Virus record (IMG/VR): IMGVR_UViG_3300028809_000684
DNA length: 64,000 nucleotides
Reading direction: 5' to 3' (one strand)
From: an uncultured virus (IMG/VR IMGVR_UViG_3300028809_000684)
Taxonomy: Duplodnaviria > Heunggongvirae > Uroviricota > Caudoviricetes
Shown in pieces: positions 484 to 44,521 of the stretch (position 1 is its first letter; each line of letters opens with the position of its first letter). A program made the translations under genes and the position numbers. Below the pieces are notes generated by a model, which was given only the letters and a program-made list of their open reading frames with translations, made no database searches and was not told the DNA's origin.

Positions 484-486
484 CAG

Positions 487-557
487 TTACCCCGCTGGGA
501 TTCGAACCCAGACTACCGGCACCAAAGACCGATGTGCTGCCGTTACACCACAGAGTA
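487..557 (-). tRNA. tRNA-Gln(UUG)
   Basis: Cloverleaf; anticodon arm TCGGT-CTTTGGT-GCCGG; T arm CTGGG-TTCGAAT-CCCAG. Confidence 0.9.
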
Positions 558-560
558 AGC

Positions 561-590
561 AAAAGACCCCGTCGCATGACAGGGTCTTTC
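561..590 (-). terminator. Hairpin followed by a U-tract (terminator-like or processing signal)
   Basis: AAAGACCC...GGGTCTTTT on the minus strand. Confidence 0.5.
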
Positions 591-730
591 GTGTCCCGGA
601 TCGCTATCGGAATGCCGAACGCACGCAACCAGATGGCCCTTTTGGGAACCACGAGCCGAAGCTCACAGAAGACTATTCGCTTTCCGGGCAATTCCAACGG
701 GATCCTAGCCGACAGTTGGGGGTTGAGCAA

Positions 731-801
731 TACCGCGTATGGGATTCGAACCCACCTAAGCCGTTAGAAAGACGGCTGTCCTCCCCGAAGACGAACGCGG
801 C
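731..801 (-). tRNA. tRNA-Glu(UUC), atypical D arm
   Basis: Anticodon arm GCCGT-CTTTCTA-ACGGC; T arm GTGGG-TTCGAAT-CCCAT. Confidence 0.8.
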
Positions 802-805
802 ATAG

Positions 806-892
806 CGGAAGTCGAGGGACTCGAACCCTCACACCCTTGCGGGCCGTCCAGGTAGCAACCGGCGCCGGCAAACCAGTGGCCGGATGACTTCC
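806..892 (-). tRNA. tRNA-Ser(GCU)
   Basis: Acceptor GGAAGTC/GACTTCC with G73; loop TTGCTAC; long variable arm. Confidence 0.8.
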
Positions 893-895
893 AAG

Positions 896-979
896 CGGAA
901 AGCCGAAGAATCGAACTCCACGCGTTTTACCGCGCCCCCGGTTTTCGAGACCAGTTTGCCTCCGTTGGCGGGACCTTCC
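896..979 (-). tRNA. tRNA-Ser(CGA)
   Basis: Anticodon arm CTGGT-CTCGAAA-ACCGG; long variable arm; G73. Confidence 0.85.
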
Positions 980-984
980 GTAAG

Positions 985-1128
985 TGACGATGCCAGGAAT
1001 CGAACCTAGTGAGCAGGCCACATTGGCAGTACCTCCCGCCGCTCTGCATGCGAGCGGACAGTCCCTTCCACCGTTGGCTGATCTGCACTGGCCATACACC
1101 AGTCCCTCTGCCATTGAGGATCATCGTC
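985..1128 (-). ncRNA. tRNA-like RNA with a ~70-nt structured insertion in the variable arm
   Basis: Acceptor GACGATG/CATCGTC-A; D arm CCTC-AATGGCA-GAGG; ACTGG/CCAGT arm; T arm CTAGG-TTCGATT-CCTGG. Confidence 0.7.
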
Positions 1129-1132
1129 AAAG

Positions 1133-1208
1133 TAGCAGCGACAGGGATCGAACCTGCATGCACACGGGTCTGAGCCGTGCCGCTCTGTCCAACATGGCGT
1201 ACGCTGCC
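1133..1208 (-). tRNA. tRNA-Leu(CAG) with short variable loop
   Basis: Anticodon arm CACGG-CTCAGAC-CCGTG; only 5 nt before the T arm. Confidence 0.8.
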
Positions 1209-1212
1209 GTCT

Positions 1213-1482
1213 TTATCGACTGGCATCACCAGTCGCTCGCCTGTGATTACGAATCTGCTGGTGCGGTGAGGACGGCTCAGGATAGGGAACACTCGCCGAC
1301 CGCACCGTCCATCCCGCTTCCCAGTTGCCATCTTCGTCACGCAGGCGAATCATGCGGCCGACGATAGCGAACTTGGCGGGAATCCAACTCGTGGTTCGCT
1401 CTAATCCACGAGGGGTTAGTCGCTCCAGGAGGCATTGACAGTACAGGTCGCGAGAACGGGATGGAGTATGAGGTGCAAACAT
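1213..1482 (-). CDS. Hypothetical protein inside the tRNA cluster
   Basis: 89-aa ORF with an AGGAG RBS, filling the gap between two tRNAs. Confidence 0.6.
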   Translation of the reverse strand: MFAPHTPSRSRDLYCQCLLERLTPRGLERTTSWIPAKFAIVGRMIRLRDEDGNWEAGWTVRSASVPYPEPSSPHQQIRNHRRATGDASR

Positions 1483-1495
1483 GATGGTCTCCTAG

Positions 1496-1578
1496 TACCG
1501 AGAGCCGGAGTCGAACCGACAAGATCGCAATGATGGCGAGTCTACAGCTCGCGGGGCCTTCCAATGCCCAATCTCGGT
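1496..1578 (-). tRNA. tRNA-Tyr(GUA)
   Basis: Anticodon arm GCGAG-CTGTAGA-CTCGC; long variable region. Confidence 0.85.
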
Positions 1579-1665
1579 GGGGCGGGCCACTTCACCTGAT
1601 CCGAGTCCGGGAGTGGTGTCACAAGCACCTTCCCTTCTGTCAGGCCGTAGTACCCGTACGGACGT

Positions 1666-1737
1666 GAGACGCCGGTCAGTGTCGAGCTGACCTCACCATC
1701 GTTTGCTGCGACGGGCCATCCCGGATGGACGGCGTCT
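1666..1737 (-). ncRNA. Aberrant tRNA-like cloverleaf (GCA at the anticodon position)
   Basis: Closing stem AGACGCCG/CGGCGTCT; arms CCATC/GATGG, CCGTCG-CAGCAAA-CGATGG and GTCAG-CTCGACA-CTGAC. Confidence 0.55.
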
Positions 1738-1806
1738 TGTGGCTGCGACGGGCGGTAAACCGCCACCGCGACGTCTACGCGGTGTCCAAACGTCGCAGCC
1801 TTTGAG

Positions 1807-1879
1807 CACAGCCCCAGGGAATCGAACCCTGCCAATCGAATTTGGAGTTCGACTCGCCAGCCTTGGATCATTGGGCCGT
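1807..1879 (-). tRNA. tRNA-Trp(CCA)
   Basis: Anticodon arm TCGAA-CTCCAAA-TTCGA; G73. Confidence 0.8.
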
Positions 1880-1885
1880 GTGAGG

Positions 1886-1957
1886 CCGGAGCGACCGGAA
1901 TCGAACCGGTGACCACCGGGTTTCAACCGATGACTCTACCAACTGAGTTACGCTCCG
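1886..1957 (-). tRNA. tRNA-Phe(GAA)
   Basis: Anticodon arm ATCGG-TTGAAAC-CCGGT; canonical D and T arms. Confidence 0.85.
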
Positions 1958-4190: not shown

Positions 4191-4841
4191 TCATTGAAGC
4201 CGCGCTGCCATTCTCTCCGCGCTGGCGACGGTGGACTCGGTGATTTTGTCGACAACGACGATCTCCTCGGCTTTGACCGGGGTGAATGATCCAATCATTC
4301 CGACAGTCACTTTCCCATGTACTGCGAAGATCGGGACGATCTCACAGTCGACCCAGGCGACTTTTGCGTCTGGGGTGATCCGGAATCGCATCCGGAACAT
4401 CCGGGCCTCCGCAACCGCGGCTGCCCAGTCTGCCGTCACGGCCGGCCGGTCCTGCGGGTGAATCGCAGCCTTCCAGCCGTGACCGAGCGCTTCTTCCAGG
4501 GTAAGCCCCGTCAGGTATCGCCACTCAGGCGAAACCCAGACGCAGTACCCGTGCTCGTCCGTCTGAATGACAGCCAGGGCCAGGTCGGAGACGATCCGTT
4601 GGACCATGCCATTCATGCGCACGAGGCCGTGCTCGATCCGATTGATCGAGTCCTTCATCGTCGAACCAGAGTTGGTCGAGAACTGATCGGCGATGGAGTT
4701 CAGCGTGGAGTACGCCTTGTGGAGGTTCACCCCGAGGCGAACGAATCCAAAAATGGCCCCACACAGTCCGGATCCGCCACCGATCAACCAGGCCCAAAAT
4801 TCCCAGCTCGACAGCCAGGTCGTGATCAGGTTGTCTCCCAT
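4191..4841 (-). CDS. Membrane protein with a C-terminal PAS (PAS_3-like) domain
   Basis: N-terminal TM segment; TDEHG..VWVSPEWRYLTGLTLEEALGHGWKAAIHPQDR is a PAS signature. Confidence 0.85.
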   Translation of the reverse strand: MGDNLITTWLSSWEFWAWLIGGGSGLCGAIFGFVRLGVNLHKAYSTLNSIADQFSTNSGSTMKDSINRIEHGLVRMNGMVQRIVSDLALAVIQTDEHGYCVWVSPEWRYLTGLTLEEALGHGWKAAIHPQDRPAVTADWAAAVAEARMFRMRFRITPDAKVAWVDCEIVPIFAVHGKVTVGMIGSFTPVKAEEIVVVDKITESTVASAERMAARLQ

Positions 4842-4920
4842 CCAGACGCCTCCTTGCGTGCGGGGTCGAAGGATGCAGCCTAAACCACCTCAAGGGACCG
4901 CTCAAGGTCCGGGTTTTCCC

Positions 4921-5814
4921 TTACCCGTGCTGGGTGAGCCACTCCAGGTACACCGGAAGGTTCTCCTTCAGGCGCCGGATCGGCTTGTACGCCATCTTCT
5001 GCCGGGCCTTCGAGATGTTGCACAGCGTGAACGCCTGGTAGTTCCGACCGTACGGATTCGGGATCCACTCAACCTCCCAGTCGTTCCCGAAGATCATGAT
5101 CGCCAGGTCCCGGAAGGACGTCGCGACGCCGGACCCGATGTTGAAGATGTCGCTCATCTGGTGGAAGCCGGCCCGATGGAACGCCTGAACGGCGTCATCG
5201 ACGTGCAGCCAATCCCGCTGCTGACTTCCATCCTCGAACAGCTTTGGAGTCTCGCCGCGGAGCTTGGTCTTGAGCAGCTGATGCACCATGCTCGCACGGA
5301 GCCCCTTGTGGGACTCACCCGGGCCGTAGGTGTTGCACAGCCGCAGACCGACTGCGTTGATCCCGTGGTTTTCAGCGACCTGTTGAACCGCCCGCTCCAT
5401 GTTGAGCTTGCTCTGTCCGTACAGGTTGCAGGTTCCCACCGGAGTGACGCCCTCCACGTACGGCGCCGGCGCATCGCCATAGACAGCTGTCGAGCTGGCG
5501 TAGACGAACTGAGGACAGCCACGACTGATGACCTGGTCCATCAGGCGCATCGTGTCGGCAACGTTGATCCGGTCGTAGGCCCCGGCATCTTCACCGCGGG
5601 TGTCGTTCAAGGCGGCAAGGTGATAGCAGACGTCAATCTTCTTCGGCAGATCGTCCGGGGAGATCCCGTACAACCCTCGGTAGATCGGAATACCGGGCGG
5701 CACATTGCCGTTTCCACCGGTCACGGAATAGACCTCCTGTCCATACGCAACGAGGGAAGCGGCCAGGGCTCGGCCGATAAAACCGGACGCGCCGGTCACC
5801 AGTGCAACGGTCAT
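4921..5814 (-). CDS. hldD: NAD-dependent epimerase, ADP-L-glycero-D-manno-heptose 6-epimerase-like
   Basis: TGASGFIG, YASSTAVYG and YGQSK motifs; HldD-like GPGESHKG..ASM and YQAFT. Confidence 0.75.
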   Translation of the reverse strand: MTVALVTGASGFIGRALAASLVAYGQEVYSVTGGNGNVPPGIPIYRGLYGISPDDLPKKIDVCYHLAALNDTRGEDAGAYDRINVADTMRLMDQVISRGCPQFVYASSTAVYGDAPAPYVEGVTPVGTCNLYGQSKLNMERAVQQVAENHGINAVGLRLCNTYGPGESHKGLRASMVHQLLKTKLRGETPKLFEDGSQQRDWLHVDDAVQAFHRAGFHQMSDIFNIGSGVATSFRDLAIMIFGNDWEVEWIPNPYGRNYQAFTLCNISKARQKMAYKPIRRLKENLPVYLEWLTQHG

Positions 5815-21450: not shown

Positions 21451-22620
21451 TCAGTTGGTCGACGGGAGGTCGACCTGTTCTCCGTCGTTACGAGCGATCA
21501 GCTTCGCGATGACGGCGCCGTCGGTGTTCTCGCTCAGGAACCGAACGGCTCCATCAGCGAAGACAGCCTGAGCACCACCCACATGGAAGCTGTAGATCTC
21601 GTCGTTCGGGCCACAGTTGTTGGTCGTCCACGGGCAACCCGGGGTCGGGCTGGTCGGTCCACCGGTCGGACGATTGTTGTTGTTGATCAGACGATGCGTC
21701 GAACCAGCCTGAGCCGGCGGGCCGGACACACCACTGCCGTTGTCGGGATCAGCCCACCGATTCGGGCACCGGCTGGCCGAGCCCGATCCGGAAGCGTCCT
21801 TGCAGTTGTCCGTGGTCCCACCGTTAGCGGTGGAGGCCAGGTACTTGCTGCGGATCCCGCCGTTGGCAGTGAGGTACTGCTTGCCGGCGTCTTCCGCGAT
21901 CGCGACCGTGTTGCTGGTTCCGTCCGTGATCAGACCCATCGCGGTGCCGCCCAGAGACAGAGCTCCATCGCGACGCGAGTTCCGATCCGTGGACGTCGCC
22001 GGATTCCGCCGGCCGAGGGCCACCGTCGTCGCCGAGGTCCCCGTCAGGTCCGTCGACGCGATCACGATGTCGGTGTAGACGGTCGGCATGTAGTCGGTCT
22101 GACCGTACCCCATCTCATCATCGACGTAGACACCGTTGCTCGGGCAGAGCAGGGCGGCGATCTTCGTCTTGGCGGCTTCCCGGTTCCGGTACTGCGGCGA
22201 GGTCGTGACCGTGCTGGCGGCGTTGTAGTGGTACTTCAGGTCCATCGTGTTGTACACGGGCGCCTGATCGAAGTACGGCAGCAGCGACGTGAACGTCGAA
22301 TGCGGATCGAACGCCGTGTCGTGCTTCGTGCCCACCCACTGACCGTTGGTGAGGGTCAGCCCCTCGGTCGCCAGCCCGGACGCCTGCGTGGCCGTCCAGT
22401 TCGTTCCTTCCCCACCACTCGGGAACCGCTTGTAGGCGGACTCGTAGTTGTGGAGAGCCAGTCCCATCTGCTTCAAATTGTTCTTGCAGGTGCTGCGACG
22501 AGCAGCCTCGCGCGCCTGCTGGACCGCTGGCAGCAGGATTGCCACCAGGACTGCGATGATCGCGATGACCACCAGCAGCTCAATCAACGTGAAACCCCGA
22601 CGCAAAGAAGAACGTGCCAT
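21451..22620 (-). CDS. DUF1559 prepilin-type N-methylation protein (Planctomycetota family)
   Basis: [77 protein letters not shown] (H-X9-DG). Confidence 0.97.
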
Positions 22621-22734
22621 CGGAAAAACCCTTGGCCTGTCACTCACAGGCAGAGGCCGTCTGAGACGGCGGATGTGGAGCGAATGCTCCAAAACAAATG
22701 CCAGGAGTATTGCACCCCTGGCACCTGTGACTTG

Positions 22735-24439: not shown

Positions 24440-24624
24440 GATGGTTCCTCGGGTGAAAGTTGCGGCTCCGCCACACGGCTGGAACCATTGAACCGTGCGA
24501 GTTTAGCCTTAACTCCTGCTATAACCCTGTGATCAAGATGGATGAACTAGCGGGAGCGACTGTCTGTAAGCATGGCCCTTCTGCTGACCTTCCTGCCGGC
24601 GCACCAGTTTCCTACAGGATGTAA

Positions 24625-24774
24625 CGCTCGCCAGGGCTGTGGGTGCATTGCCCGGAATCCTGGCCACTTACTCAGCGTTCCACGGGTGGTCCTGAGCGGC
24701 TAGCGCTTCAGGCCTCATCCGTGCTCGCCCCTGGCAGCGGGGCTAGAAACAGAGGTTGATTGTCAGAGCCTCTG
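24625..24774 (-). ncRNA. omegaRNA-like scaffold, copy 1
   Basis: Homologous to the RNA at the 3' end of the TnpB-like gene; four co-varying stems; invariant GAACGCTG and CACAGCCC. Confidence 0.8.
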
Positions 24775-24880
24775 CTCTTGGACTGTTCGGGCTTGAGTCG
24801 AAAATGGCTCGTGCCTGACTGCGACGTACAGCGGCCTGCGCAGCGGAGGAGCGTTTCTGCGTTAATCTGGCCAGCAGGGA

Positions 24881-24946
24881 CCACAACATCAGGATCGAGA
24901 CGTGGTGCTAAAGGTCCTCACGTTCTACCGCCACAACATCAGGATC
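24881..24946. repeat. 16-nt direct repeat CCACAACATCAGGATC (x2)
   Basis: Exact copies at 24881-24896 and 24931-24946. Confidence 0.9.
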
Positions 24947-24956
24947 TAGATCCAAA

Positions 24957-25107
24957 CATTGCCGGGGCTGTGGACACATTGTCCTGAATCCCGGCCACTT
25001 ACGCAGCGTTCCGCGAGCGGTTCCGAGCGGCGAGCGCATTCAGACCTTACTCGCGCTTGGCCCCGGTGATGGGCCTAGACATCGGGGTTGAAAGTCAGAG
25101 CCCCTAT
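24957..25107 (-). ncRNA. omegaRNA-like scaffold, copy 2
   Basis: Same architecture; P2 loop ATCACCG. Confidence 0.8.
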
Positions 25108-25424
25108 TCGGATGCAGCAGCGACTGCCGACTTCTTGGCCTTGTGGCGGATCGCCTGGGTGACCTGGCGCTCCGTCGTGACGATGGCGTGCTTGTGGCTG
25201 GTTCGCATGGCGTCCCAGCGGCCGGCACTGATCCCGACGACAATCGCGTTCGGGTTCTGCTTCTGAACTCGCACGAGCTGCTGCTCAGCGAACTCAGCAT
25301 TGCAGAAGATCAGCATCCGCCCCTTCGGATCAACGAAGGGGACCGGCTGCGGATCTGATGGAGTGAAGATGGCCCACCGGATCGAATGCGACCGGTGGCG
25401 AAGAGCGGGTTCAAACTTGGCCAT
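25104..25424 (-). CDS. Hypothetical protein
   Basis: AAGGA RBS; stop codon overlaps scaffold copy 2. Confidence 0.6.
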   Translation of the reverse strand: MAKFEPALRHRSHSIRWAIFTPSDPQPVPFVDPKGRMLIFCNAEFAEQQLVRVQKQNPNAIVVGISAGRWDAMRTSHKHAIVTTERQVTQAIRHKAKKSAVAAASE

Positions 25425-25467
25425 GAACTGATCCTTCAGAGGATGGAGTGAACGGAACGCAGCATCG

Positions 25468-26010
25468 TCACTCGGACGGGGCTTGTCCAGGCTCCTCGTT
25501 AGGGAGGTTCGCCTTCACCGCCGCCGCCAGGTTGTCGTAAACGTGGGCAATCCCCTCCGGCGACACGGACGAGAGCAGCACAACACGCTCGCTCATCCGG
25601 ACTTCGTCTTCAGGCATGCCGGTCTGATCTTCAGCGTGCGGCAGGAGGAAGAGGATGTACTCCATATCGTCCGGCAGAATCGCCTTGAACGATTCCTCAA
25701 CCACGGACGCCCAGTCGTCGCGAGTCTTGGCATCCAACTCGTTCAGGAGCGCCGGCTGACCGTCGTGGCGATAGTGCAGGTGACGTAGATACAGGCCAGC
25801 GTAGTAGATCGACATCAGCCGCGGTGGCAAGCTGCTCACAGTCATCCCGTGGAGCAGCGTCTCGCCAGTGTGCTTCTCGCCCGGTCCCGGCCGCACGCCG
25901 AAATTGAACGAGAAGTCGGTATCGGGCGGGAGCAGGTCAACAACCGCAAGCCGGATCTTTTCACCGAGCTCGCGCTGCTCCTCAGCCGACAGGTCTTTGA
26001 ACGATTTCAC
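25468..26010 (-). CDS. Hypothetical protein with an internal duplication
   Basis: Two similar halves (LLPPD...SSLPP and ILPDD...SSVSP). Confidence 0.6.
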   Translation of the reverse strand: MKSFKDLSAEEQRELGEKIRLAVVDLLPPDTDFSFNFGVRPGPGEKHTGETLLHGMTVSSLPPRLMSIYYAGLYLRHLHYRHDGQPALLNELDAKTRDDWASVVEESFKAILPDDMEYILFLLPHAEDQTGMPEDEVRMSERVVLLSSVSPEGIAHVYDNLAAAVKANLPNEEPGQAPSE

Positions 26011-26509
26011 AACAAGCCTTTCGTTTTCAGGCGTTCAACGATGAAGGCCTCGCAGTCCTCTCGGGTCGCAGGGCCGAAGATGGATTTACCGAACCAAGCA
26101 GCAGCCTGCTGATCCGACTTAGCAAGCGGATGGGCTGAGCCCCGTTCGACAACGATCGTGCGTCGCGGACTAACGCCGACGACTAGAAGATGGTGTTTGT
26201 TGGCCAGCGCTTCGAGGCGCCGCATCTGCTCCTGGATCTCGGCAATCCGAGCAGACTCAGATGGGGTAAACTCCCGAGCCATAGACTCCTTTCCGGATTC
26301 AATACCCGCGGATTGCTTATCGAGGAATGATGAAGCCGATCGCAAACCCAAAAAGGAATGCAAACGCCATAAGGCCGTACTCAGACGTATCGGACGTGAT
26401 CGGTTTCGGAACAGGCTTGCCCTCATCGCAGAAGGCGCACCACCAATGCTCTGCAGCCAAGTAGTGCGGAGTCGGTTCGATCTGGCAGCCGCAAGGCTTC
26501 CGGACCCAC

Positions 26510-26794
26510 TCAATCGTTGGGGCGTCGATTGTCGTCGCGTCCATGCTTAGCTCCGTAGATTGCATCGTGTAATCGGATCGACAGGTACATGGCGGATGAT
26601 GCCCCGCAACCAGCCGAGAACCCGAGGGTCCAGTCGCCCTTGACCACGAGAAAGACCAGGGCGACATCCAGGAACGCCATCAGGAAGGCCGTGACAATGA
26701 CCAGGCGCATGTGTCCGCCGATGACGTTCTTGTACTGGAATCCTTTAAGGAATACAGCCACAAACGACATGACGAACGAAACGAGGTAGATCAC
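26510..26794 (-). CDS. Small multi-pass membrane protein
   Basis: Three hydrophobic segments. Confidence 0.6.
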   Translation of the reverse strand: MIYLVSFVMSFVAVFLKGFQYKNVIGGHMRLVIVTAFLMAFLDVALVFLVVKGDWTLGFSAGCGASSAMYLSIRLHDAIYGAKHGRDDNRRPND

Positions 26795-27402
26795 TTCCCT
26801 TCCAGAAACTTGACCGTGTTCACCAGCACCTGGGCGAGCTGTCGTGAGATCCGGAACCGCGGCGTGTTGATGAGGATGCTGCGGAGGATGTTGCCGTTGC
26901 GATGACGCTCGCTGCTCGCCTTCCAGTCGAGGGTCATCTCCAGGATGGCCGGCAGGTTCATCTCGTTGATCGGAGAGACGTCGTTTGCCGCCTCCTCTTG
27001 GAGCCGAGCGACCAGCCGCTCCTTGACAGCCTGCGGGATATCCGTCGACCGCTCCAGCGCAGAAATATCGGAGAGCATCTCCGGATCGGGCGTACCTTCC
27101 CGGTAATGCTCGGGATGATGGTCGTTGCGGCCGTAGTGGTGATCCAGTGCTGGCTTGAGAGCCGCAAGGAACTCCTTGTACTGCGGGTCCCCGAATGTCA
27201 CGCCGTCAAGCAACGGCGTGTAGACAGCGAAGAACTCCGCTTCGGGAGACTGCAACTTGGAGAGGTCATGCCTCGATGCGCGAAGGAGAAGCTCCGTCGC
27301 CATGACGCCGAGAAGGTCACGAACCCGCGAGATGTGCGCCTGGGTCTGGACTTTCGACTCCGCCAGCGCGAGCGGGGTCACTTCCGGAAGTTGACTCGTC
27401 AA
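26791..27402 (-). CDS. DUF5662-like HD-type phage protein
   Basis: HI..V, HDLSKL, HHYGRNDHHPEHY and EMTLDW motifs. Confidence 0.75.
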   Translation of the reverse strand: MTSQLPEVTPLALAESKVQTQAHISRVRDLLGVMATELLLRASRHDLSKLQSPEAEFFAVYTPLLDGVTFGDPQYKEFLAALKPALDHHYGRNDHHPEHYREGTPDPEMLSDISALERSTDIPQAVKERLVARLQEEAANDVSPINEMNLPAILEMTLDWKASSERHRNGNILRSILINTPRFRISRQLAQVLVNTVKFLEGK

Positions 27403-28099
27403 CGAATACTCCTTGAGGTTTCAGCCGACTGATCGCACAGATGGCGTCAGCGGCCAAGACGATATCCGACAGCAAAGCGCTGTCAAAGATAATGCGAACC
27501 GCAGGGACTTCCTGTCCGTTGCGAGGCGGCAAGGACGTTGCTCTCACCTCCAGAACAGGCAGCCACCGGAACTCGCGTGAGTGAAGCCACAGGAACTTGT
27601 CCCCGACGACCACCTGAGCAGCCGCTGCCTCGTAGATGTCTCGGCCGGGTGCCAACCCACGCTCGTACACCAGACTTGCCAAACCGTCGAGGTTGGGCAC
27701 CAGCGAGGCCAGAGACTGATTCGTGCGAATGAGCTTGTCCTCCGTGCGTCGAAGGTCGTTTTGAAGCTCATAGACCAGTCCTTCGACCGCCCCACTGACC
27801 GTATCGTCATAGGCGTCGAACTTGACGTGATCGACAGAAATCACTGCCCGCACCATTCCCGAAGGAGTGGTCTGGACGCGAATGAAGTTGATGGGCTGGA
27901 GTCCATCGTATTCGCGTGTCTCAACCCAGAACGCTTCAGCGTGAAAGAACCCTTCGAACTCTCCAGTTTGCAGCTTTACGGCCGTCTCAATGGACTTCTC
28001 GTCGAGCTGCGGTACGGCCCGAGCAAGCTCGCGGCGAAATTCGAGAGCGAGGTCGTTAGCTTCGAGCGCTGACTTGGGCAGTTTGATCTCGTCGGTCAT
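27317..28099 (-). CDS. Hypothetical protein
   Basis: 260-aa ORF; ATGA coupling. Confidence 0.6.
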   Translation of the reverse strand: MTDEIKLPKSALEANDLALEFRRELARAVPQLDEKSIETAVKLQTGEFEGFFHAEAFWVETREYDGLQPINFIRVQTTPSGMVRAVISVDHVKFDAYDDTVSGAVEGLVYELQNDLRRTEDKLIRTNQSLASLVPNLDGLASLVYERGLAPGRDIYEAAAAQVVVGDKFLWLHSREFRWLPVLEVRATSLPPRNGQEVPAVRIIFDSALLSDIVLAADAICAISRLKPQGVFVDESTSGSDPARAGGVESPDPGAHLAGS

Positions 28100-28648
28100 G
28101 GTTGGCGACTGAGCCTTTCAAAGAGGAGATCCATCTCCAGCAGGTTCTCCGGTGCCAGTTCATCCGGCACGAAGTTCCAGCGGACATGGGTGTCAAAGAA
28201 GATCACCTCGATCCGCCGGCCATATCGGGAAAGGAGGTACGTCGGTGGGCCGTTGTTGGTGGCGTCCTCAAAGCCCTCCTGGAGGAGAACCGCGGGCGTG
28301 AGTTTGACCAGGCGCCGTTCTTCCATCGCCACAAGATGGCCGGCGAGCGTCATGAGGTCACGACGCTTCTGGCTGATGTTGACGTGCGGCACGGGGCCGA
28401 CGTCAGATCGGTAGGGATCCAAACCCTGGCGGCTGTCCAGCTGCCGCTTGAGTGCTTCAACGAATGCCGTTCCACGAACGATCATTCCAGTCCTGTCCTT
28501 CCTGTTGAGGCTTCTTAACCCAAGCCTGATGCTCGTACGTGTCTGCAAGGACAACGAGCACAAAGGCAAACGTGATGAATACGATCATGGCCGCGAGCAC
28601 CATGAGCATTTGAATGAGAATGTCCATAGTGCGTCGACTCCCTGATAT

Positions 28649-28863
28649 CTGCGGATGAGACGGCCACCTCTCGTAACTGCGGGATTCTTCACCGGCATTG
28701 TCCTGCGGGGTGCCGGCAGCTGCCTGCATGCGCCATGCTCTGCTTTCGTGAACGATGGTCCTGCACAGAACCTAGAGCCGAGACCTGCATCCATTGGGCT
28801 GAGCTGCCTCGTGCGTGTGAACCTGCCCTCCATAGCAACCTGCCGAAAGGCCTCCTAGCGAAC
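28649..28863 (-). repeat. GCAG-punctuated array of unique 12-24 nt segments (putative guide array)
   Basis: Plus-strand CTGC at 28649, 28677, 28703, 28720, 28724, 28740, 28761, 28785, 28804, 28823 and 28840. Confidence 0.7.
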
Positions 28864-29008
28864 GTCTCGGGGCTGTGGACACGTTGTCCTGAATCCCGAC
28901 CTTTCACAGCGTTCCGCGAGTGTCTCCAGGCGGCTAGCGCTCTGGATCTGATTCGCGCTTCGCCCTTGCAGCGGGCGTAGACACAGGGGTTGATAATCAG
29001 TGCCCCTG
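28864..29008 (-). ncRNA. omegaRNA-like scaffold, copy 3
   Basis: Same architecture; P2 loop GCTGCAA; ends CCCCGAGAC. Confidence 0.85.
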
Positions 29009-29057
29009 CTCTGGGAATTGTTCAACGTAATCTCACGTTCAGGACGTGGCACATTGT

Positions 29058-29386
29058 CTGCAATACGGACAGCAGACGCTGCCTAACCGGATTGTGCTGC
29101 CTTGATCCTGCGACATTCCCCGTAGACCTGCTGACGTACGGACTTCTTTCTGTCATGACACGATCGTCTGACGTGATACTGCGTCCGAGCGGAACATCAC
29201 TCGCCGTGTCGGTGCTGTTGCGTCCCTGAGGTCATTGCAGTGCGCCAGTGCCGGAAGCTGCGTCCGAACCCTAACGAGGTGTACTCGAACGTCCGAATCT
29301 TGCCGCAATGGTATCCTGTCGCTCCTTGCAAAGCCGACACACTTCTCCAGGGACTTGCAGTCGAGTTTCAGGCGGGTGCACCGGAC
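29058..29386 (-). repeat. GCAA/GCAG-punctuated array (putative guide array)
   Basis: Plus-strand TTGC at 29218, 29235, 29300, 29326, 29355 and CTGC at 29058, 29079, 29097, 29108, 29128, 29179, 29258. Confidence 0.6.
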
Positions 29387-29534
29387 GTTTCGGGGCTGTG
29401 AGCACATTGCTCGGAATCCCGATCTCTTTCTCAGCGTTCCGCGGTCGAACCGGGGCGGCTAGCGCTCCCGGTCGACACCGCGCTTGGCCCTGGCAATGGG
29501 CCTGATCCAAGGAGTTGAAGGTCATTGCTCCTGG
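29387..29534 (-). ncRNA. omegaRNA-like scaffold, copy 4 (overlaps the TnpB-like stop codon)
   Basis: 5' hairpin spans the TGA; P2 loop ATTGCCA; ends CCCCGAAAC. Confidence 0.85.
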
Positions 29535-30823
29535 CTCGTCTCGCCTTCGTCGGAGGACTCTTCCTCCTTCTCCGGCGGCGTCTTGGCACGAACCACGATC
29601 CGCTTCGCACGAGCCTTCTGTTCGATCATGGTGCCAAGCATGGCCCACGGGAACGAGGGTGCGAAGGAGTGGTCCGTATCGTCATAAACGATCTCCGCCA
29701 CTTTACGGCGGGCTGCGTAGGCAACAAGTGAGGCACTCACCTGGTGGCACAGCGTCTGGAGCCGGTTCCGGTCACGCCGGGCCTTCTCCTGAACGTGAGC
29801 TTGGAACGGCTTTCCGTCCCGCCGCGGTTTCCGATACTCGGCCTTGCGGTCGTCGCTCAGTCGAGACAACTCCCGCAGGTGGGCCGCGTGCCGGTTCGAA
29901 ATCATCCGGGCGTTATCGGCGTTGTAGTTCCAGATCCGCTGATCGTCCATGTCTACGCAGACCAGGAGCGAATCCTTGTCTGAGCGAACCATCAGCGTGT
30001 TGTCGGGAATGGACTCTCCCTTGATGGGGAGCCACCCGACGATCTTCGCCATCAACCGCCGGCTCGACCGGTTCCCGTTTCCGTTCTCTCGGTCCTTGTT
30101 CGCCGGCCGGTGATCGCCGGGCTTGCCTTCGATTTCCAGCAGCGCCGCCTGGCCCAGGAGCTCGGGATGCTCCATCAGCCATTCGATCGCCTTCGTCTGC
30201 CGCTTGAACTGCCGGCCGGCAGAGAGCATCAGCTCGTGCCGCACTCCGCCGACATTGGCGATCAGGAAGATCCGCTCGTCCTTGCGTTCCAGCTTGAACC
30301 CGTCCGGCCGAATGGGAACCGGCTGCGGAAAGCGGAAGCTCGGCGGCGCAATCGCGTTTCGCCAGATCATGTCATATCGCAATTTGCGATAGCGCTGCTC
30401 GACTGACATCAGAACCGCCGAAGCGGTTCCCTTGCCGATCGTCTGCCACGATGCCAGCTCTGGTCCCATCCCGTACAGGTAGATCGGCGGCATCTTCGGC
30501 AGTTTCTCCTCGCCGGGACCGCGGACAACGTCGTTCGCCAGCAGCTTCCGGATCGCCCAGTTGCTGAGGTGAGTCACTGCCTCCTGTGCCTGCCGCAGGA
30601 TCGGGCGAAAGACCTCCCAGTCCGCCGAGGCGATCGGGATCGTCATCGCGCGGATCGCGTAGGTCTTGCCCCAGCACTCCGAGCAGGTGAGCGTACTCCC
30701 AACGTTCTTCCAACCCCGCGGCGGGCGAGGCTTCCCTTTCACGGTCGGCTTGACGTTGCGCAAGGCGCCGCAGACCGAGCAAGCAATTTCGACAGTTTCA
30801 GTTGACGTTGTCGCCGTCTCCAT
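29522..30823 (-). CDS. Nuclease-dead TnpB/Cas12f-like RNA-guided protein with an N-terminal Zn ribbon
   Basis: Bridge helix and RuvC-II region RNRLQTLCHQVSASLVAYA..IVYDD..FPWAMLGTMIEQKA...IVV; no GxDxG RuvC-I motif; ends before the Zn finger and RuvC-III; N-terminal CSVC...CSEC. Confidence 0.8.
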   Translation of the reverse strand: METATTSTETVEIACSVCGALRNVKPTVKGKPRPPRGWKNVGSTLTCSECWGKTYAIRAMTIPIASADWEVFRPILRQAQEAVTHLSNWAIRKLLANDVVRGPGEEKLPKMPPIYLYGMGPELASWQTIGKGTASAVLMSVEQRYRKLRYDMIWRNAIAPPSFRFPQPVPIRPDGFKLERKDERIFLIANVGGVRHELMLSAGRQFKRQTKAIEWLMEHPELLGQAALLEIEGKPGDHRPANKDRENGNGNRSSRRLMAKIVGWLPIKGESIPDNTLMVRSDKDSLLVCVDMDDQRIWNYNADNARMISNRHAAHLRELSRLSDDRKAEYRKPRRDGKPFQAHVQEKARRDRNRLQTLCHQVSASLVAYAARRKVAEIVYDDTDHSFAPSFPWAMLGTMIEQKARAKRIVVRAKTPPEKEEESSDEGETSQEQ

Positions 30824-31181: not shown

Positions 31182-31215
31182 AAAAGAAAAGAGACGGCAG
31201 GAAAGTCCTGCCGTC
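31182..31215 (-). terminator. Intrinsic terminator
   Basis: GACGGCAGGA-CTT-TCCTGCCGTC followed by TCTTTTCTTTT. Confidence 0.7.
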
Positions 31216-31594
31216 CCGGGATAGCTACTCTCCGTCAGCCAGCTTGCGGTACGCCTCGATCTGAGCGAGCTCGGCTGCGGTGAACAGCTCGGGCTGCGTC
31301 GGCTGAGGCATCCGGGCTCGCTTGTAAAGGCGAGCCAGCCAGAAGTGATCGATGTGGTAGCCGCTACGGTACGCTTCCATCGTCACCAGCTTTCCGGCTT
31401 CACGCGTGGCCGGCCAATCCGGGACCGGAACGTATTCCGAAGTCTCGGGACAGGCCAGCTTGAAGTTCGGTTGCGGTCGATTCAGTGGCCGGTTCTGAGG
31501 TTGCTTTCCCTCTTGCCGATACCACGTCGCCGCCAGAGAGGTGTGCTTCCTCATCACCAGACAAAGGCGCTTGAGGAGGGCACAGGTTTCGTAG

Positions 31595-31978: not shown

Positions 31979-32032
31979 TGGGAGGTGCGGTCAATGTTCC
32001 ATTGTGAGGTCCTCCTTCTGAAATGAACCCTG

Positions 32033-32106
32033 TGTCGGGGGCGGGATTCGAACCCGCAACCAACGGATTTGAAGTCCGGTGCTCTAACCATTTGAGCCAC
32101 CCCGAC
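32033..32106 (-). tRNA. tRNA with UCA anticodon (opal suppressor, not tRNA-Sec)
   Basis: Canonical 7/5 cloverleaf; CCGGA-CTTCAAA-TCCGT; short variable loop; A73. Confidence 0.85.
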
Positions 32107-32975: not shown

Positions 32976-33533
32976 TTATTCGCGGATGCCACTTTTATTC
33001 CGAGCCAGCCAGAGCTTTTCGTCAAGGTCCACCGGGTGGATCTCCAGGCGATCGGCTTCGGCCAGGAACAGCTGCGTCACCCGCTCGTATTCACGCTTGG
33101 ACTGGGGCGTGATCTTCGGGACATTGTGGCCTTGCTCCGCGAGCCAGGCCAAGATGTGAACATCCAGGACCGCGTAGCGATCCCGGCGGTTCGACCACCG
33201 CATGAAGAAGCGGCTTGTCTTCTGCTTGATCCCTTTGATGGCCTCCAGCTCCGCGACCGTACATGTGGCCAGATCGAGCTGGGCTCTCAACAGGCCGTGA
33301 AAGGCCGCGGAGTTCTTGTCGTAGTTGCCGACGCGAGCAGCCTTGAGGCAACTCACCAGCGTCGGCATCCTCTGAGGTAGGGACTCGAACCACGTCCCCT
33401 TCCAGAGACCGCGACGTTCGAGCTCTTCGAAGAGCACGATCATCTTGGCTTCTGCGAACCTCGCCGATTTGCCGGCGACGATCACCGCGTAGAGAACCTT
33501 GTATTCCAGATCCTTTGGAAACGACCGAGGCAT
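32976..33533 (-). CDS. HhH DNA glycosylase, 8-oxoguanine glycosylase (Ogg2)-like
   Basis: LEAIKGIKQKTSRFF...AVLDVHIL with catalytic-type K and D; C-terminal LDEKLW. Confidence 0.75.
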   Translation of the reverse strand: MPRSFPKDLEYKVLYAVIVAGKSARFAEAKMIVLFEELERRGLWKGTWFESLPQRMPTLVSCLKAARVGNYDKNSAAFHGLLRAQLDLATCTVAELEAIKGIKQKTSRFFMRWSNRRDRYAVLDVHILAWLAEQGHNVPKITPQSKREYERVTQLFLAEADRLEIHPVDLDEKLWLARNKSGIRE

Positions 33534-34722
33534 CTTCTACCTTTTGAGCGGGTACAGCGGTTCGATCAGAACGTCGCCTGCAACCCACTTCTCCTGAGAG
33601 GTAAAACCACTCGTATATAGTGACGCAATTCCGCTGCCAATGAAGGCGTCGCTGCCGAACGCCATGTGCGGCCGGAAGATCATATCGCCCAGCAACAAAA
33701 CATGCGGCCGTTTGGAGCCCATCAGCAGAGGGGCGCCGTTGGTGGTCTGAAAGACACCAGCCACGTGATTGGGATCACCGGTGTCTTGAACGATGAAGTT
33801 CATCGGGATGTGAAACGCCCGATCACCCATCAGGAGTTTGGCCGGGTTCGTCCCCAGGAGGTTGTCCATCTGGTGGTGCCTTTCTCATGAGTTGCCAGAC
33901 TCGATAGCGGTAGTAGATCCACTGCGCGGCCATCGTCGTCAGGAGCAGTGCGCGTTCATTGTGCGACATGTCCTTGATGGCGACGCCACCGAGGCGGTTG
34001 TTGTGGAAGTACTTGTAGTGCTTGTTGACGAACAAGACTCCGCAGAGCATGTTCAATGACGACCCGAGCCACATGCCGGCGAGCTCAGCACGTGCACCAA
34101 ACACGACACTGAGCAGAAACCCGCCCGCGACAGTCACTAGGAACGAGGTACAGATCGCGTAGAAGAACTCAGCGACGAGGATTCGATGGAGAGGTCGCAC
34201 TCAATGGTCTCCGATTTTGTAACGACACGGCGAACACGCACTGTGCTCAGGTGCTTGATCGTGTAACCCGCATTGAGCAGGTCAGCGATGCGAGTCTGGT
34301 ACCAGACCGCGAGCTCCTCTGGCGTATCGCGAACGATGATCCGCTTCCAACCTTCGGATGTCTTCGTCTCCAGCGCATAATCCAACTGGATCTCAGGCTC
34401 ATTCGGATCCGGCTCGACCGGACGCTCGATACGATCCAAGGCGGTGTTGTAGTCGGGATCATCCGCACGACGATCCCAGTTGCCAAGTACATCCGGCATA
34501 GCTATCTCCGCGGGTAGTGGGGACCGCCGATCACAGGACCCGGGACGCTGACCTTGACCGGAAAGCCCTCCCAGTCCGCGATCTTCTCGATCTCCGGATT
34601 CTTGCGGTCGAGATAGACGAAGAGGGTCGAGACGGCGGCGCCGATCCCAACCCTCCCCTCTGATCCGACACGCTCCTGGAGGCGTTCAGCAGCCTCCTGC
34701 ATCTGCTGTGGGTTGGGCTCGT

Positions 34723-43263: not shown

Positions 43264-44521
43264 AAGATGCCTTTCCGCGCTTTGAGCGCCTTGAGCTCAT
43301 CCCAAATCAGACCGAGCCGGCCGCGGTACTGCGCTCCGTAGAACGTGACCAGGGCATACCCGGGCATCGCTGTCGGCACGCCAAGGATGCCGGGCTCGGT
43401 CGTTTCGATGTTGAGGCCGGGCCAGGTCTGAACGACCTCCCGAAGATGAGGGATGTCCGCGATCTTGACGTTCTGATCGCACACCCACTGTGCGTTCCCG
43501 GTCCGCATCTTTGCTTCGTAGGCCAGAAACTTTTCATGCCAGTCATCGAAGCCCGGCACCTGCAGCTTGAGCATGTCAGATCCCCGTAATTTCGTCGTCG
43601 AACTCGTCAAACGCGTAGAGCAGCTTGATCGCCCAGTACATGGCAAGCAGCGTCAGTAGCACAACCTGCGAGAGCGGCTTCACGTGAAAGGCAGTCCACA
43701 TCAGAGCCACGAAGGTGCCGCCCATCATGATGATGTGGACCCACAGCAGGAAGCGTTTCATCGCAGCCCTTTCCAGCGGTCGCGAGATCGGAGCTTGCGT
43801 CGCTCCTTTCGCTGGGTTTTCTTCTTGGCCCTCAGCCTCTGCAGATCCTCGCCAGTCGGCTTGACGTGGTAGCCGTTGTGGTGGCTACCCCAGGCCGCAA
43901 CGATCGCCTGCAGGGTGTCGTGAGGCTTAATCTTGATATCCCAGCTCACGAAGCTCCTCCTTGGCCTGCTTGCCAACTCCGATACGGAGGTGGTGCATGA
44001 AGACCGGCTGGCCCGGTGCTTCCAGCGGCGAGCGCATCCATGCGCCAGGCAGAGCCATAGATTTCCCGATCGAGCGACCGATCCGAAGAACAATGGATCG
44101 TTCCTCGTAATACGCAGCCGGCAGGTCAGTGTAGGGCGGTGCTGTAAAGCGATGAGCCTCCAACAGCATATTCTCCAGCGTCGTGACGTGGTCAAACGAC
44201 GCTGGATTGGTTGCAGGTCTCAAGGCGTTCCTTTCTCTGGCTCTTCAACCAGCGTCACTTCCCAGAAGTAGTAGAGCGCGTCAACCGCCTCACCATCCTT
44301 GCCGGCAGAGCGGACACGAACCATCTCCGGATAGACTTCACGCACATAGCCAGGCAAACCGGCCTTTGGCTGCACCCGCTTGCCCTTCCACTGGGTTTCG
44401 AGGTCCTGCATCCGGGCGTTGTAGGCTTCGTTGGCCTCCCGGGTCTGGATCACAAGGTGAGCCAGCCCGTACAAAACGGCACCGCCGAAAACGGCGGTCA
44501 GGACGCCACTCCAGAACTTGT

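What the first reader, a model, noticed from the sequence alone, without database searches (positions are those of the whole stretch)
24593..29485. The array separator is complementary to, and co-varies with, a loop in its own scaffold
Seen: the 7-nt P2 loop differs between scaffolds, and its positions 2-5 are the reverse complement of that scaffold's separator. Copy 3 has loop gCTGCaa and an array with only GCAG (11 times, no GCAA). Copy 4 has loop aTTGCca and an array with GCAA (5 times) plus GCAG, which U-G wobble allows. Copy 1 has loop gCTGCca with GCAG at 24593, 24581 and 24516. Copy 2 has loop aTCACcg with proximal GTGG, GTGA, GTGG (24931, 24918, 24881); this case is weaker, with n=3 and two inside a duplicated 16-mer. 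Established: TnpB and Cas12f guide RNAs use a short pseudoknot next to the guide. Inference: the loop docks any downstream motif, so one scaffold can present alternative guides by register switching or as processed mini-crRNAs.
Basis: partly seen in the sequence, partly recalled or inferred. Interest (0 to 1): 0.92.

Follow-up and report, generated by a model that had tools for sequence, protein, structure and literature searches.

The report
Phage guide-RNA scaffolds with four-letter repeats
A giant phage carries one cutting-dead Cas12f-like protein and five copies of its guide-RNA scaffold, and a loop in each scaffold base-pairs with a four-letter motif that marks where a guide starts, a motif that in two places recurs like a CRISPR array shrunk to four-letter repeats.

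Summary
The four repeats, plus a fifth just outside the window, are about 150-nt structured RNAs on the minus strand. One overlaps the 3' end of a 433-aa ORF that profile and fold searches identify as Cas12f-like with a truncated C-terminus, so probably nuclease-dead.

In 17 related scaffold-array pairs the scaffold precedes a CRISPR array. The four repeat bases next to the spacer are the complement of loop positions 2-5. Together with the phage's own five, 20 of 22 pairs are fully complementary, in nine pair types.

This pairing is the known Cas12f/Cas12b "short repeat/anti-repeat" pseudoknot. It is distinct from a second pseudoknot inside the scaffold.

What is unusual is the repeat length:
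- Most relatives have 24-38-nt repeats.
- One related phage has about 45 repeats of 12 nt with 8-22-nt spacers.
- In this phage only the tetranucleotide recurs.

The recurrence is strong for copy 3 (GCAG 11 against 1.5 expected), moderate for copy 4, marginal for copy 5, and absent for copies 1 and 2.

Docking of the motif in the loop is well supported. Use of the extra motifs as alternative guide starts is inferred. No targets and no RNA data were found.

The parts
29522..30823 (-). 433-aa Cas12f-like effector. It has an N-terminal CxxC...CxxC zinc finger and a truncated C-terminus, so it is probably nuclease-dead. It is the only copy in the phage genome.
   Evidence: No Pfam or NCBIfam hit. 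A profile of 28 homologues hits Cas12f1 9i8y at E 1.2e-10 and 'nuclease-deactivated Cas12f' 9n9c at 1.1e-5. The AF2 model has pLDDT 87. Foldseek best hit is AsCas12f 8j12 at E 3.7e-16. The HMM alignment ends at chain residue 373 of 500 and places the SpCas12f1 'IENLEG' glutamate in a gap. tblastn finds one significant copy in G001.
29388..29539 (-). Scaffold copy 4. It overlaps the last 18 nt of the effector ORF. P2 loop ATTGCCA at 29491-29497.
   Evidence: cmsearch 170.3 bits; loop coordinates.
29015..29387 (-). Linker and motif array after copy 4. It holds GCAA x5 (complement of UUGC), then mostly GCAG (x7 in all, six of them in the 190 nt just upstream of copy 3).
28865..29014 (-). Scaffold copy 3. 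P2 loop GCTGCAA at 28966-28972.
   Evidence: cmsearch 167.4 bits.
28640..28864 (-). Copy 3 array. GCAG occurs 11 times, spaced 17, 19, 19, 24, 21, 16, 4, 17, 26 and 28 nt. The stretch is non-coding and ends at the start of the next gene.
   Evidence: P = 7e-7; 11 on the RNA strand, 1 on the other.
24960..25112 (-). Scaffold copy 2. It starts at the stop of the 106-aa ORF 25104-25424. P2 loop ATCACCG at 25064-25070.
   Evidence: cmsearch 166.1 bits.
24881..24959 (-). Copy 2 linker hairpin and two short repeats. The 16 shared bases GATCCTGATGTTGTGG end in the motif GTGG, which pairs with UCAC through one G-U. About 34 nt lie between the two repeats.
   Evidence: Repeat family D8; sequence; linker fold.
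24629..24780 (-). Scaffold copy 1. P2 loop GCTGCCA at 24732-24738.
   Evidence: cmsearch 169.6 bits.
24516..24628 (-). Copy 1 linker hairpin and three GCAG (24593-24596, 24581-24584, 24516-24519). Three more GCAG lie in the 100 nt upstream of copy 1 (24781-24880).
   Evidence: The enrichment here is not significant.
28872..28910 (-). Example, in copy 3, of the second, intra-scaffold pseudoknot: GCUG (28907-28910) pairs with CAGC (28872-28875). The equivalent pairs are 24673-24676/24636-24639, 25004-25007/24967-24970 and 29432-29435/29395-29398.
   Evidence: Helix 6: 94% of cells paired, 2 of 4 pairs with compensatory changes. Coordinates.

Best explanation
The repeats are guide-RNA scaffolds (tracrRNA fused to a vestigial first repeat) for the phage's single Cas12f-like protein. 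That protein lacks the RuvC-II and RuvC-III catalytic parts, so it should bind DNA without cutting it.

The 7-nt P2 loop acts as the 'short anti-repeat'. Its positions 2-5 form a 4-bp pseudoknot stem with a 'short repeat' tetranucleotide in the downstream RNA. The bases just 3' of that tetranucleotide are the guide.

In most relatives the tetranucleotide is the end of a 24-38-nt CRISPR repeat. In this phage the repeat has shrunk to 16 nt (copy 2) or to the tetranucleotide alone (copies 3, 4 and probably 5).

The extra tetranucleotides, spaced 16-28 nt apart in copy 3, are most likely alternative docking points. Each would put a different 12-24-nt stretch into the guide position.

The five scaffolds carry four different loop codes (CUGC twice, UUGC, UCAC, CGGC), each matched by its own downstream motif.

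Shown: the RNA structure, the protein family, the loop-motif covariation, and short-repeat arrays in a relative. Inferred: that docking happens in this RNP, that the extra motifs are used, and what the complex regulates.
For: (1) RNA structure. RNAalifold on the four copies gives 42 pairs, 19 with compensatory changes. On 17 distinct sequences, 94.7% of cells are paired and 43 of 46 pairs show changes on both sides. None of 500 shuffles reaches this, and slid controls pair in 32-46% of cells.

(2) Protein. The catalytic residues of SpCas12f1 are D228, E327 and D434 (PMC12255294, passage read).

(3) Relatives.
- One search found 11 related viral loci.
- The model finds a scaffold downstream of the gene in all 11.
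- One search examined 12 of their scaffolds and found repeats after every one: 2-6 repeats of 24-38 nt.

(4) Covariation.
- Of 16 scaffold-array pairs, 14 are fully paired, which is 62 of 64 cells. Shuffles give a mean of 6.8 fully paired, and none of 20,000 reaches the observed value.
- Six further pairs were read by eye and all fit: L049 CCGC/GCGG; L051 TCGC/GCGA and L050 CCGA/TCGG; L060 CTGC/GCAG and L055 and L061 CCGU/GCGG.

(5) An unseen test case. Copy 5 has loop ACGGCTA, with GCCG four times at 21-27-nt spacing before the next gene.

(6) Position. The first motif lies +22 to +33 after the scaffold in all five copies. In 11 of 13 relative scaffolds it lies +15 to +27, usually after a hairpin.

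(7) A short-repeat array in a relative.
- Phage G005 (46.6 kb) has four scaffolds.
- It has 44 matches to the core of the 12-nt repeat GGAAGCTGCGGG. Spacers are mostly 8-22 nt, on both sides of the scaffolds.
- Each of its scaffolds is followed by GCTTCC, the complement of GGAAGC.

(8) Literature. [quoted passage not shown] That stem can be reprogrammed, and scrambling it abolishes function (PMC11246509, passages read).
Against: - Motif recurrence is significant only for copy 3 and, more weakly, copy 4. It is marginal for copy 5 and absent for copies 1 and 2.
- No conserved sequence precedes the extra motifs in copies 3 and 4. They therefore lack the long repeat/anti-repeat pairing that relatives keep, and a 4-bp contact alone may be too weak.
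- Two of the 22 pairs have only 3 of 4 positions paired (L030b, L031).
- No target was found for any putative guide: not in the phage's own genome, not in the related loci, and not for L050's guide in the Planctomycetales MAG that carries it.
- SR-anchored matches in the genome number 17, against 2-13 in 20 shuffles. The longest match (11 nt) is within the shuffle range.
- The PAM is unknown.
- The alignment used for the pair counts was fitted to the model's structure, which favours that structure.
- The five copies are paralogues and several relatives are related to one another, so the pairs are not fully independent.
Confidence: 0.6

Rival explanations
1. Each scaffold is a fixed single-guide RNA. 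Only the first complementary tetranucleotide, about 22-33 nt after the scaffold, docks and sets one guide. The further motifs in copies 3 and 4 are relics of a decayed short-repeat array, or hitch-hiking sequence with no present role.
For: The first motif sits at the canonical distance in all five copies. Relative L050 shows no further repeat in the sequence downstream of its scaffold. Published nuclease-dead Cas12f and TldR systems use single guides of 14-16 nt (PMC13472631, passages read). Copies 1 and 2 show no significant recurrence. The extra motifs lack any long-repeat pairing partner.
Against: Eleven GCAG in 225 non-coding nt, all on one strand and 16-28 nt apart, are unlikely to survive as relics (P = 7e-7). 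Units of 17-28 nt are too short to be decayed 12-nt or 36-nt repeat units. G005 keeps about 45 well-conserved 12-nt repeats, which argues that short-repeat arrays are maintained in this family.
Confidence: 0.25
2. The motif arrays serve the DNA or the transcript in another way. They could be sponges that titrate the scaffold loop. They could also be self-targets: the RNP made from the transcript binds its own array DNA and blocks transcription into the downstream operon.
For: Copies 1, 3 and 5 and their arrays lie directly upstream of the next gene. Every guide is by construction complementary to its own array DNA. A nuclease-dead effector makes self-binding harmless. All the motifs end in a purine, and one published dCas12f needs only a 5'-G next to its target (PMC13472631, passage). 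CRISPR repeat-like mini-arrays that autoregulate cas genes are on record (10.1101/2023.03.03.530964, abstract only).
Against: There is no direct evidence. The PAM of this family is unknown. The relatives' ordinary arrays would then self-target as well.
Confidence: 0.1
3. The loop-motif match is a by-product of base composition or of an unrelated protein-binding motif. The loop has another partner.
For: GCAG and GCCG are common tetramers in a 60% GC genome. The enrichment for copies 1 and 2 is not significant.
Against: There are nine different complementary pair types across 22 pairs, and none of 20,000 shuffles reaches the observed pairing. The motif is at a fixed place, namely the end of the repeat next to the spacer. 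The other GCAG-rich regions are coding runs, mostly spaced in multiples of three.
Confidence: 0.05

Closest known systems
Cas12f1 (type V-F) tracrRNA:crRNA with a long repeat/anti-repeat stem and a short repeat/anti-repeat pseudoknot (for example AsCas12f, PDB 8J12)
   Same: The protein fold matches. A structured tracr-like RNA lies beside the gene. A short stem forms between a tracr loop and the repeat bases next to the guide. In relatives a long repeat/anti-repeat duplex or hairpin comes just before it. Literature: PMC11246509, passages read.
   Different: The stem is 4 bp rather than the reported 5-7 bp. The scaffold is often fused to the first repeat. The effector lacks RuvC-II and RuvC-III. 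In the window the long repeat part is vestigial (copies 1, 2 and 5) or missing (later units of copies 3 and 4). No Rfam family matches.
Nuclease-dead Cas12f homologues (dCas12f-sigmaE activators, and a dCas12f cluster next to CRISPR arrays; PMC13472631)
   Same: Both are C-terminally truncated Cas12f with part of the RuvC site lost. Guides are short. Some published members lie beside CRISPR arrays with a covarying RNA upstream (passages and an Extended Data legend read).
   Different: Twelve neighbouring ORFs were scanned against Pfam. None matched a sigma or HTH family, and DUF5662 was the only hit above Pfam's threshold. This system is phage-borne and has five scaffolds for one protein. The similarity to the published dCas12f (9n9c) is partial, E 1.1e-5. 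I could not test whether this family is the paper's CRISPR-associated cluster, because its figures and supplements were not seen.
TldR, phage-encoded TnpB-like nuclease-dead repressors (10.1101/2023.11.30.569447 and PMC13418256, listings and abstracts only)
   Same: Both are phage-encoded, nuclease-dead, RNA-guided proteins whose scaffold overlaps the 3' end of the gene and whose guide lies 3' of it.
   Different: The best matches here are Cas12f rather than TnpB (ISDra2 TnpB E 3.5e-7 against AsCas12f 3.7e-16). There is no Pfam OrfB_IS605 or OrfB_Zn_ribbon hit. Relatives have CRISPR arrays.
CRISPR repeat-like mini-arrays and stand-alone repeats (10.1101/2023.03.03.530964, abstract only)
   Same: Both are small, non-canonical repeat units near cas genes that yield cr-like RNAs.
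   Different: By its abstract, that paper describes additional stand-alone repeats in CRISPR-cas loci. I did not read how long or how many they are. Here the repeated unit is 4-16 nt and recurs up to 11 times.

Membership tests
Cas12f / type V-F effector | Cas12f-like fold (WED with zinc finger, REC, RuvC) | tested here: met
   The AF2 model has pLDDT 87.4. The top 10 Foldseek hits are all Cas12f chains, at E 3.7e-16 to 1.7e-14. Profile against PDB sequences: Cas12f1 at E 1.2e-10. C15, C18, C47 and C50 are nearly invariant.
Cas12f / type V-F effector | Complete RuvC catalytic triad (D228, E327, D434 in SpCas12f1) | tested here: not met
   The HMM alignment puts the 'IENLEG' glutamate in a 7-residue gap of this family. 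It ends at chain residue 373 of 500, with about 20 residues left in the query. No acidic residue is invariant at the RuvC-I or RuvC-II positions in the 28 homologues. Residue numbers are from PMC12255294.
Cas12f / type V-F effector | Pfam or NCBIfam family assignment | tested here: not met
   No TnpB or Cas12 family reaches any threshold.
Cas12f-type guide RNA (tracrRNA:crRNA with short repeat/anti-repeat pseudoknot) | A short stem between a tracr element and the repeat bases next to the guide | tested here: met
   Twenty of 22 scaffold-array pairs are fully complementary, in nine pair types (by eye). The pairing itself has not been observed physically.
Cas12f-type guide RNA (tracrRNA:crRNA with short repeat/anti-repeat pseudoknot) | A long repeat/anti-repeat duplex before the short stem | tested here: inconclusive
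   Relatives have it: a hairpin inside the fused first repeat, or an anti-repeat tail. In the window, predicted hairpins exist in the linkers of copies 1, 2 and 5, and weaker ones in copies 3 and 4. Nothing comparable precedes the later motifs.
CRISPR array | Direct repeats of roughly 21-48 nt (range recalled, not from a call) alternating with unique spacers of similar length | tested here: not met
   In the window the repeated unit is 4-5 nt (copies 3, 4 and 5) or 16 nt (copy 2). Relatives meet the definition, with 24-38-nt repeats. G005 has 12-nt repeats.
dCas12f-sigmaE transcription activators | An adjacent rpoE (sigmaE) or HTH gene | tested here: not met
   Twelve ORFs around the locus were scanned against Pfam. 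None matched a sigma or HTH family. No neighbouring gene is shared with relatives.
TnpB / TldR with omega-RNA | IS200/IS605 context or OrfB domains, and a single guide at the transposon end | tested here: not met
   There are no OrfB Pfam hits. TnpB structures score below Cas12f. Relatives carry arrays. Transposon ends were not looked for.

The most novel reading that the evidence does not exclude
This phage uses the smallest CRISPR-like repeat so far seen, a bare 4-nt 'address' (GCAG, GCAA, GCCG, GUGG). Any stretch of the transcript that follows the address can dock into the matching scaffold loop and become a 12-24-nt guide. About 225 nt would then encode 11 guides without Cas1/2-made repeats and perhaps without processing. 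The five scaffolds with four loop codes would form an addressing system that sorts guide sets onto one nuclease-dead effector. A bolder variant: each unit is both guide (RNA) and target (its own DNA), giving a tunable, self-templated roadblock in front of the downstream operon.
Probability: 0.4. Interest if true: 0.9.

Novelty: new variant of a known kind. Interest (0 to 1): 0.8.

Why it matters
If the four-letter motifs really set guides, three things follow.

- The sequence needed to turn an RNA into a Cas12f-type guide can be as small as four bases. The full series of intermediates (24-38 nt, 16 nt, 12 nt, 4 nt) is preserved in living phages.
- This bears on how single-guide, tracr-dependent and array-based type V systems convert into one another.
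- It also suggests very compact multiplex guide cassettes and orthogonal scaffold-guide pairs for miniature dCas12f tools.

Biologically, it adds a family of RNA-guided, probably non-cutting regulators. They occur in phage genomes, and two homologues lie on contigs of MAGs labelled Planctomycetales and Gemmataceae. Their targets are still unknown.

Tried and rejected
- Rfam: nothing on the scaffolds at gathering or at E <= 10.
The window's own assembly is not held.
- Alignments A2 and A5 were too diverse for the search for related loci.
- A scaffold DNA pattern in viral contigs gave 13 stretches, none of them a scaffold by the model.
- A longer pattern in metagenome contigs returned the phage itself and three chance matches.
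- tblastn against GenBank phages: no match.
- P0018 in viral contigs: none.
- A6 in genome contigs: none.
- A4 gave only an N-terminal fragment with no scaffold.
- Tandem Repeats Finder did not report the L036 array. I used a k-mer script instead.
- Target searches:
  - Window guides against the phage genome gave only chance-level matches.
  - Relatives' arrays against all held loci gave none.
  - L050's guide in its own MAG matched only itself, plus a 2-mismatch hit at control rate.
  - G005 mini-spacers gave 6 anchored 12-mers against about 1.6 expected. One matched 14 of 18 in the terminal repeat of G003. This is not significant on its own.
  - SR-anchored matches numbered 17 against 2-13 in shuffles, and the longest was within the shuffle range.
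- No RNA holder is listed among the sequencing runs.
- Laying contigs of four DNA runs showed no informative variants in the arrays.
- The sigma-70 promoter scan was at shuffle level.
- No neighbouring gene is shared with relatives.
- No further scaffolds were found in five more related records.
- Literature searches turned up no description of 4-12-nt repeats in type V systems or of this phage family. The library lacks most subscription papers, and supplements and figures were not seen.

Full report
**What is there**

The region holds four copies of a roughly 150-nt element on the minus strand. A covariance model built from them (R1) finds exactly these four in the window. It finds a fifth in the same genome, just outside the window (L005:1501-1653).

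The genome is a 229,210-bp viral record (G001) that CheckV rates as complete. The window holds a cluster of seven tRNA genes, plus an eighth tRNA at 32032-32106.

The element is a structured RNA:
- On the four copies, RNAalifold gives 42 pairs, 19 with compensatory changes.
- On 17 distinct sequences including relatives, 94.7% of cells pair and 43 of 46 pairs change on both sides. None of 500 shuffles reaches this. Slid controls pair in 32-46% of cells.
- That alignment was fitted to the model's structure, which favours it.
- No Rfam family matches.

**The protein**

Copy 4 overlaps the 3' end of a 433-aa ORF (29522-30823, minus strand). The ORF has no Pfam or NCBIfam hit.

It has 27 homologues, all without a Pfam annotation. 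Some lie on contigs of 112-229 kb.

- A profile of the family hits Cas12f1 (9i8y, E 1.2e-10), other Cas12f and TnpB chains, and a "nuclease-deactivated Cas12f" (9n9c, E 1.1e-5).
- The AlphaFold model (pLDDT 87) matches Cas12f structures best (AsCas12f E 3.7e-16; TnpB E about 1e-7).
- SpCas12f1 uses D228, E327 and D434 for catalysis (PMC12255294, passage read).
- In the HMM alignment the "IENLEG" glutamate falls in a gap of this family. The alignment stops at chain residue 373 of 500, with about 20 query residues left.
- No acidic residue is invariant at the RuvC-I or RuvC-II positions.

I therefore read the protein as a nuclease-dead Cas12f-like effector. It is the only copy in the genome.

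**Check of the observation**

Against genome-wide tetramer frequencies, the complement of each loop occurs downstream as follows:

| Copy | Motif | Observed vs expected | Poisson P | Rank of 256 |
|---|---|---|---|---|
| 3 | GCAG | 11 vs 1.5 | 7e-7 | 1 |
| 4 | GCAA | 5 vs 1.2 | 0.008 | 4 |
| 5 | GCCG | 4 vs 1.4 | 0.049 | 6 |
| 1 | GCAG | 3 vs 1.3 | 0.14 | 29 |
| 2 | GTGA | 1 vs 0.6 | 0.45 | 71 |

- The true loop-to-region assignment is the best of 120 permutations, tied with one other.
- The other GCAG-dense windows of the genome are coding stretches, mostly spaced in multiples of three.
- Copy 3's array is non-coding. Its spacings are 17, 19, 19, 24, 21, 16, 4, 17, 26 and 28 nt. It has 11 motifs on the RNA strand against 1 on the other.
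Its loop is ACGGCTA, and GCCG occurs four times, 21-27 nt apart, before the next start codon.

**Relatives decide what the motif is**

A search of viral contigs with five homologues gave 11 loci. The model finds a scaffold downstream of the gene in all 11. Later searches added:
- one more viral locus;
- two MAG contigs titled Planctomycetales and Gemmataceae;
- three further scaffolds in two of the records.

All 12 relative scaffolds examined are followed by repeats: 2-6 repeats of 24-38 nt. In several, the scaffold's last bases are the first bases of the first repeat.

The four repeat bases that come before the final base of the repeat (usually G), next to the spacer, are the complement of loop positions 2-5. 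Examples are CCGC/GCGG, CTGC/GCAG, CCAC/GTGG, CCGA/TCGG and CCGU/GCGG.

Counting the window's five copies by their first motif:
- In a table of 16 pairs, 14 are fully paired (62 of 64 cells). Shuffles give a mean of 6.8 fully paired, and none of 20,000 reaches the observed value.
- The two exceptions pair at 3 of 4 positions (L030b, L031).
- Six more pairs, read by eye, all fit.
- The total is 20 of 22 pairs, in nine pair types.

Rows dropped before these counts:
- L035, which is identical to L034.
- L033:4639-4790, a 31.5-bit hit that lacks two helices, has no array, and shows no complement of its loop in 250 nt.

In 11 of 13 relative scaffolds the first motif lies +15 to +27 after the scaffold, usually after a hairpin. 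In the two others it lies at +106 and +108. Those two have a tail after the scaffold that looks complementary to the repeat (by eye). In the window the first motif lies at +22 to +33.

**Comparison with what is known**

[quoted passage not shown] In AsCas12f1 both stems can be reprogrammed, and scrambling the short anti-repeat abolishes function (PMC11246509, passages read).

- The P2 loop is this family's short anti-repeat, with a 4-bp stem.
- A second pseudoknot lies within the scaffold. GCUG in the junction pairs with CAGC in the last hairpin. It co-varies as GCGG/CCGC, GCGC/GCGC, GGCC/GGCC and GCCG/CGGC, with 94% of cells paired.
- Nuclease-dead Cas12f homologues are published, some of them beside CRISPR arrays (PMC13472631, passages read).
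- Phage-encoded TldR repressors are published as well (listings and abstracts only).

**What is unusual**

The repeat is shrinking.
- Copy 2 keeps two 16-nt repeats that end in GTGG, with about 34 nt between them.
- In copies 3 and 4 nothing is conserved before the motif. Only GCAG or GCAA recurs, 16-28 nt apart in copy 3 and 11-51 nt apart in copy 4.
- This is not peculiar to one genome. The related 46.6-kb phage G005 has four scaffolds.
- G005 has 44 matches to the core of the 12-nt repeat GGAAGCTGCGGG. Spacers are mostly 8-22 nt, on both sides of the scaffolds. It also has some full 35-nt repeats.
- Each G005 scaffold is followed by GCTTCC, the complement of GGAAGC. That 12-nt repeat therefore still carries a 6-nt long-repeat part as well as the 4-nt short repeat.
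- By analogy, the GCAG motifs just upstream of copies 1 and 3 may belong to those scaffolds, whose loops are CUGC. There are 3 in 100 nt upstream of copy 1 and 6 in 190 nt upstream of copy 3.

**Mechanism**

I consider it most likely that each scaffold with its linker hairpin, first motif and following bases is a natural single-guide RNA for a DNA-binding, non-cutting effector. I put this at about 0.9 for the docking.

In copies 3 and 4, and perhaps 5, the further motifs would offer alternative docking points, each with a different 12-24-nt guide. I put this at about 0.55.

Tethering in cis could compensate for the weakness of a 4-bp contact. Whether the RNA is processed is unknown.

The four loop codes among the five scaffolds would keep guide sets apart. 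GCAG can also pair with copy 4's UUGC through a G-U pair.

**What is missing**

- No target was found for any putative guide.
- No PAM is known.
- No RNA run holds the region.
- Laid contigs were uninformative.
- No gene neighbour is shared with relatives.
- The closest homologues could not be fetched.

**Verdict**

The element is a new variant of a known kind: Cas12f-type guide RNA with a nuclease-dead effector. Its unusually short repeats are worth an experiment.

Noticed in passing
window 486-1957 and 32032-32106 (minus strand): A cluster of seven tRNA genes, plus a separate tRNA with anticodon TCA. ARAGORN calls the latter tRNA-SeC, and it scores 73.9 bits as a tRNA in Rfam. It could be a UGA-suppressor tRNA of the phage.
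   Followed up: no
window 21451-22692 (minus strand): A 413-aa ORF with an N-terminal prepilin-type signal. From memory it looks like the DUF1559 proteins that are abundant in Planctomycetes; I ran no family search on it. This fits the Planctomycetales and Gemmataceae MAG titles of two homologue loci.
   Followed up: no
G001:158362-158376 and G001:158563-158574 (outside the window): Two motif-anchored segments from different arrays match the plus strand of one gene, 200 bp apart. One is copy 4's unit at window 29100 (GCAG plus 11 nt). The other is copy 1's unit at 24584 (GCAG plus 8 nt). Match lengths are within the shuffle range, so this may be chance, but the clustering is odd.
   Followed up: partly
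G003:49 and G003:65314 (terminal repeat of a related phage): One 18-nt mini-spacer of phage G005 matches 14 anchored bases in the direct terminal repeat of phage G003, which encodes the same effector family. This is a single hit, with about 0.1 expected by my rough estimate.
   Followed up: partly
G005 (L063-L065): 28270-28680, 4420-5260 and 43340-43900: Arrays of 12-nt repeats (GGAAGCTGCGGG) with 8-22-nt spacers lie on both sides of four scaffolds in a 46.6-kb phage. The arrays after L055 and L061 share diverged spacers, so they look like duplicates.
   Followed up: partly
window 26791-27402 (minus strand): A 203-aa ORF between copies 3 and 2 matches DUF5662 (E 8e-28). It is the only Pfam hit above threshold among the 12 neighbouring ORFs.
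   Followed up: no
window 31191-31217 (minus strand): A strong terminator-like hairpin (12 pairs followed by a T-run) lies just upstream of the 124-aa ORF that precedes the effector gene. It may mark the start of the transcription unit that holds the effector and copies 4 and 3.
   Followed up: no
window about 33300-33700, against G001 ends: The window runs across the ends of record G001: window 33500 maps to G001 229014, and window 33600 maps to G001 52. The whole window is not found in a simple circularisation, so the two assemblies differ slightly at the junction.
   Followed up: partly
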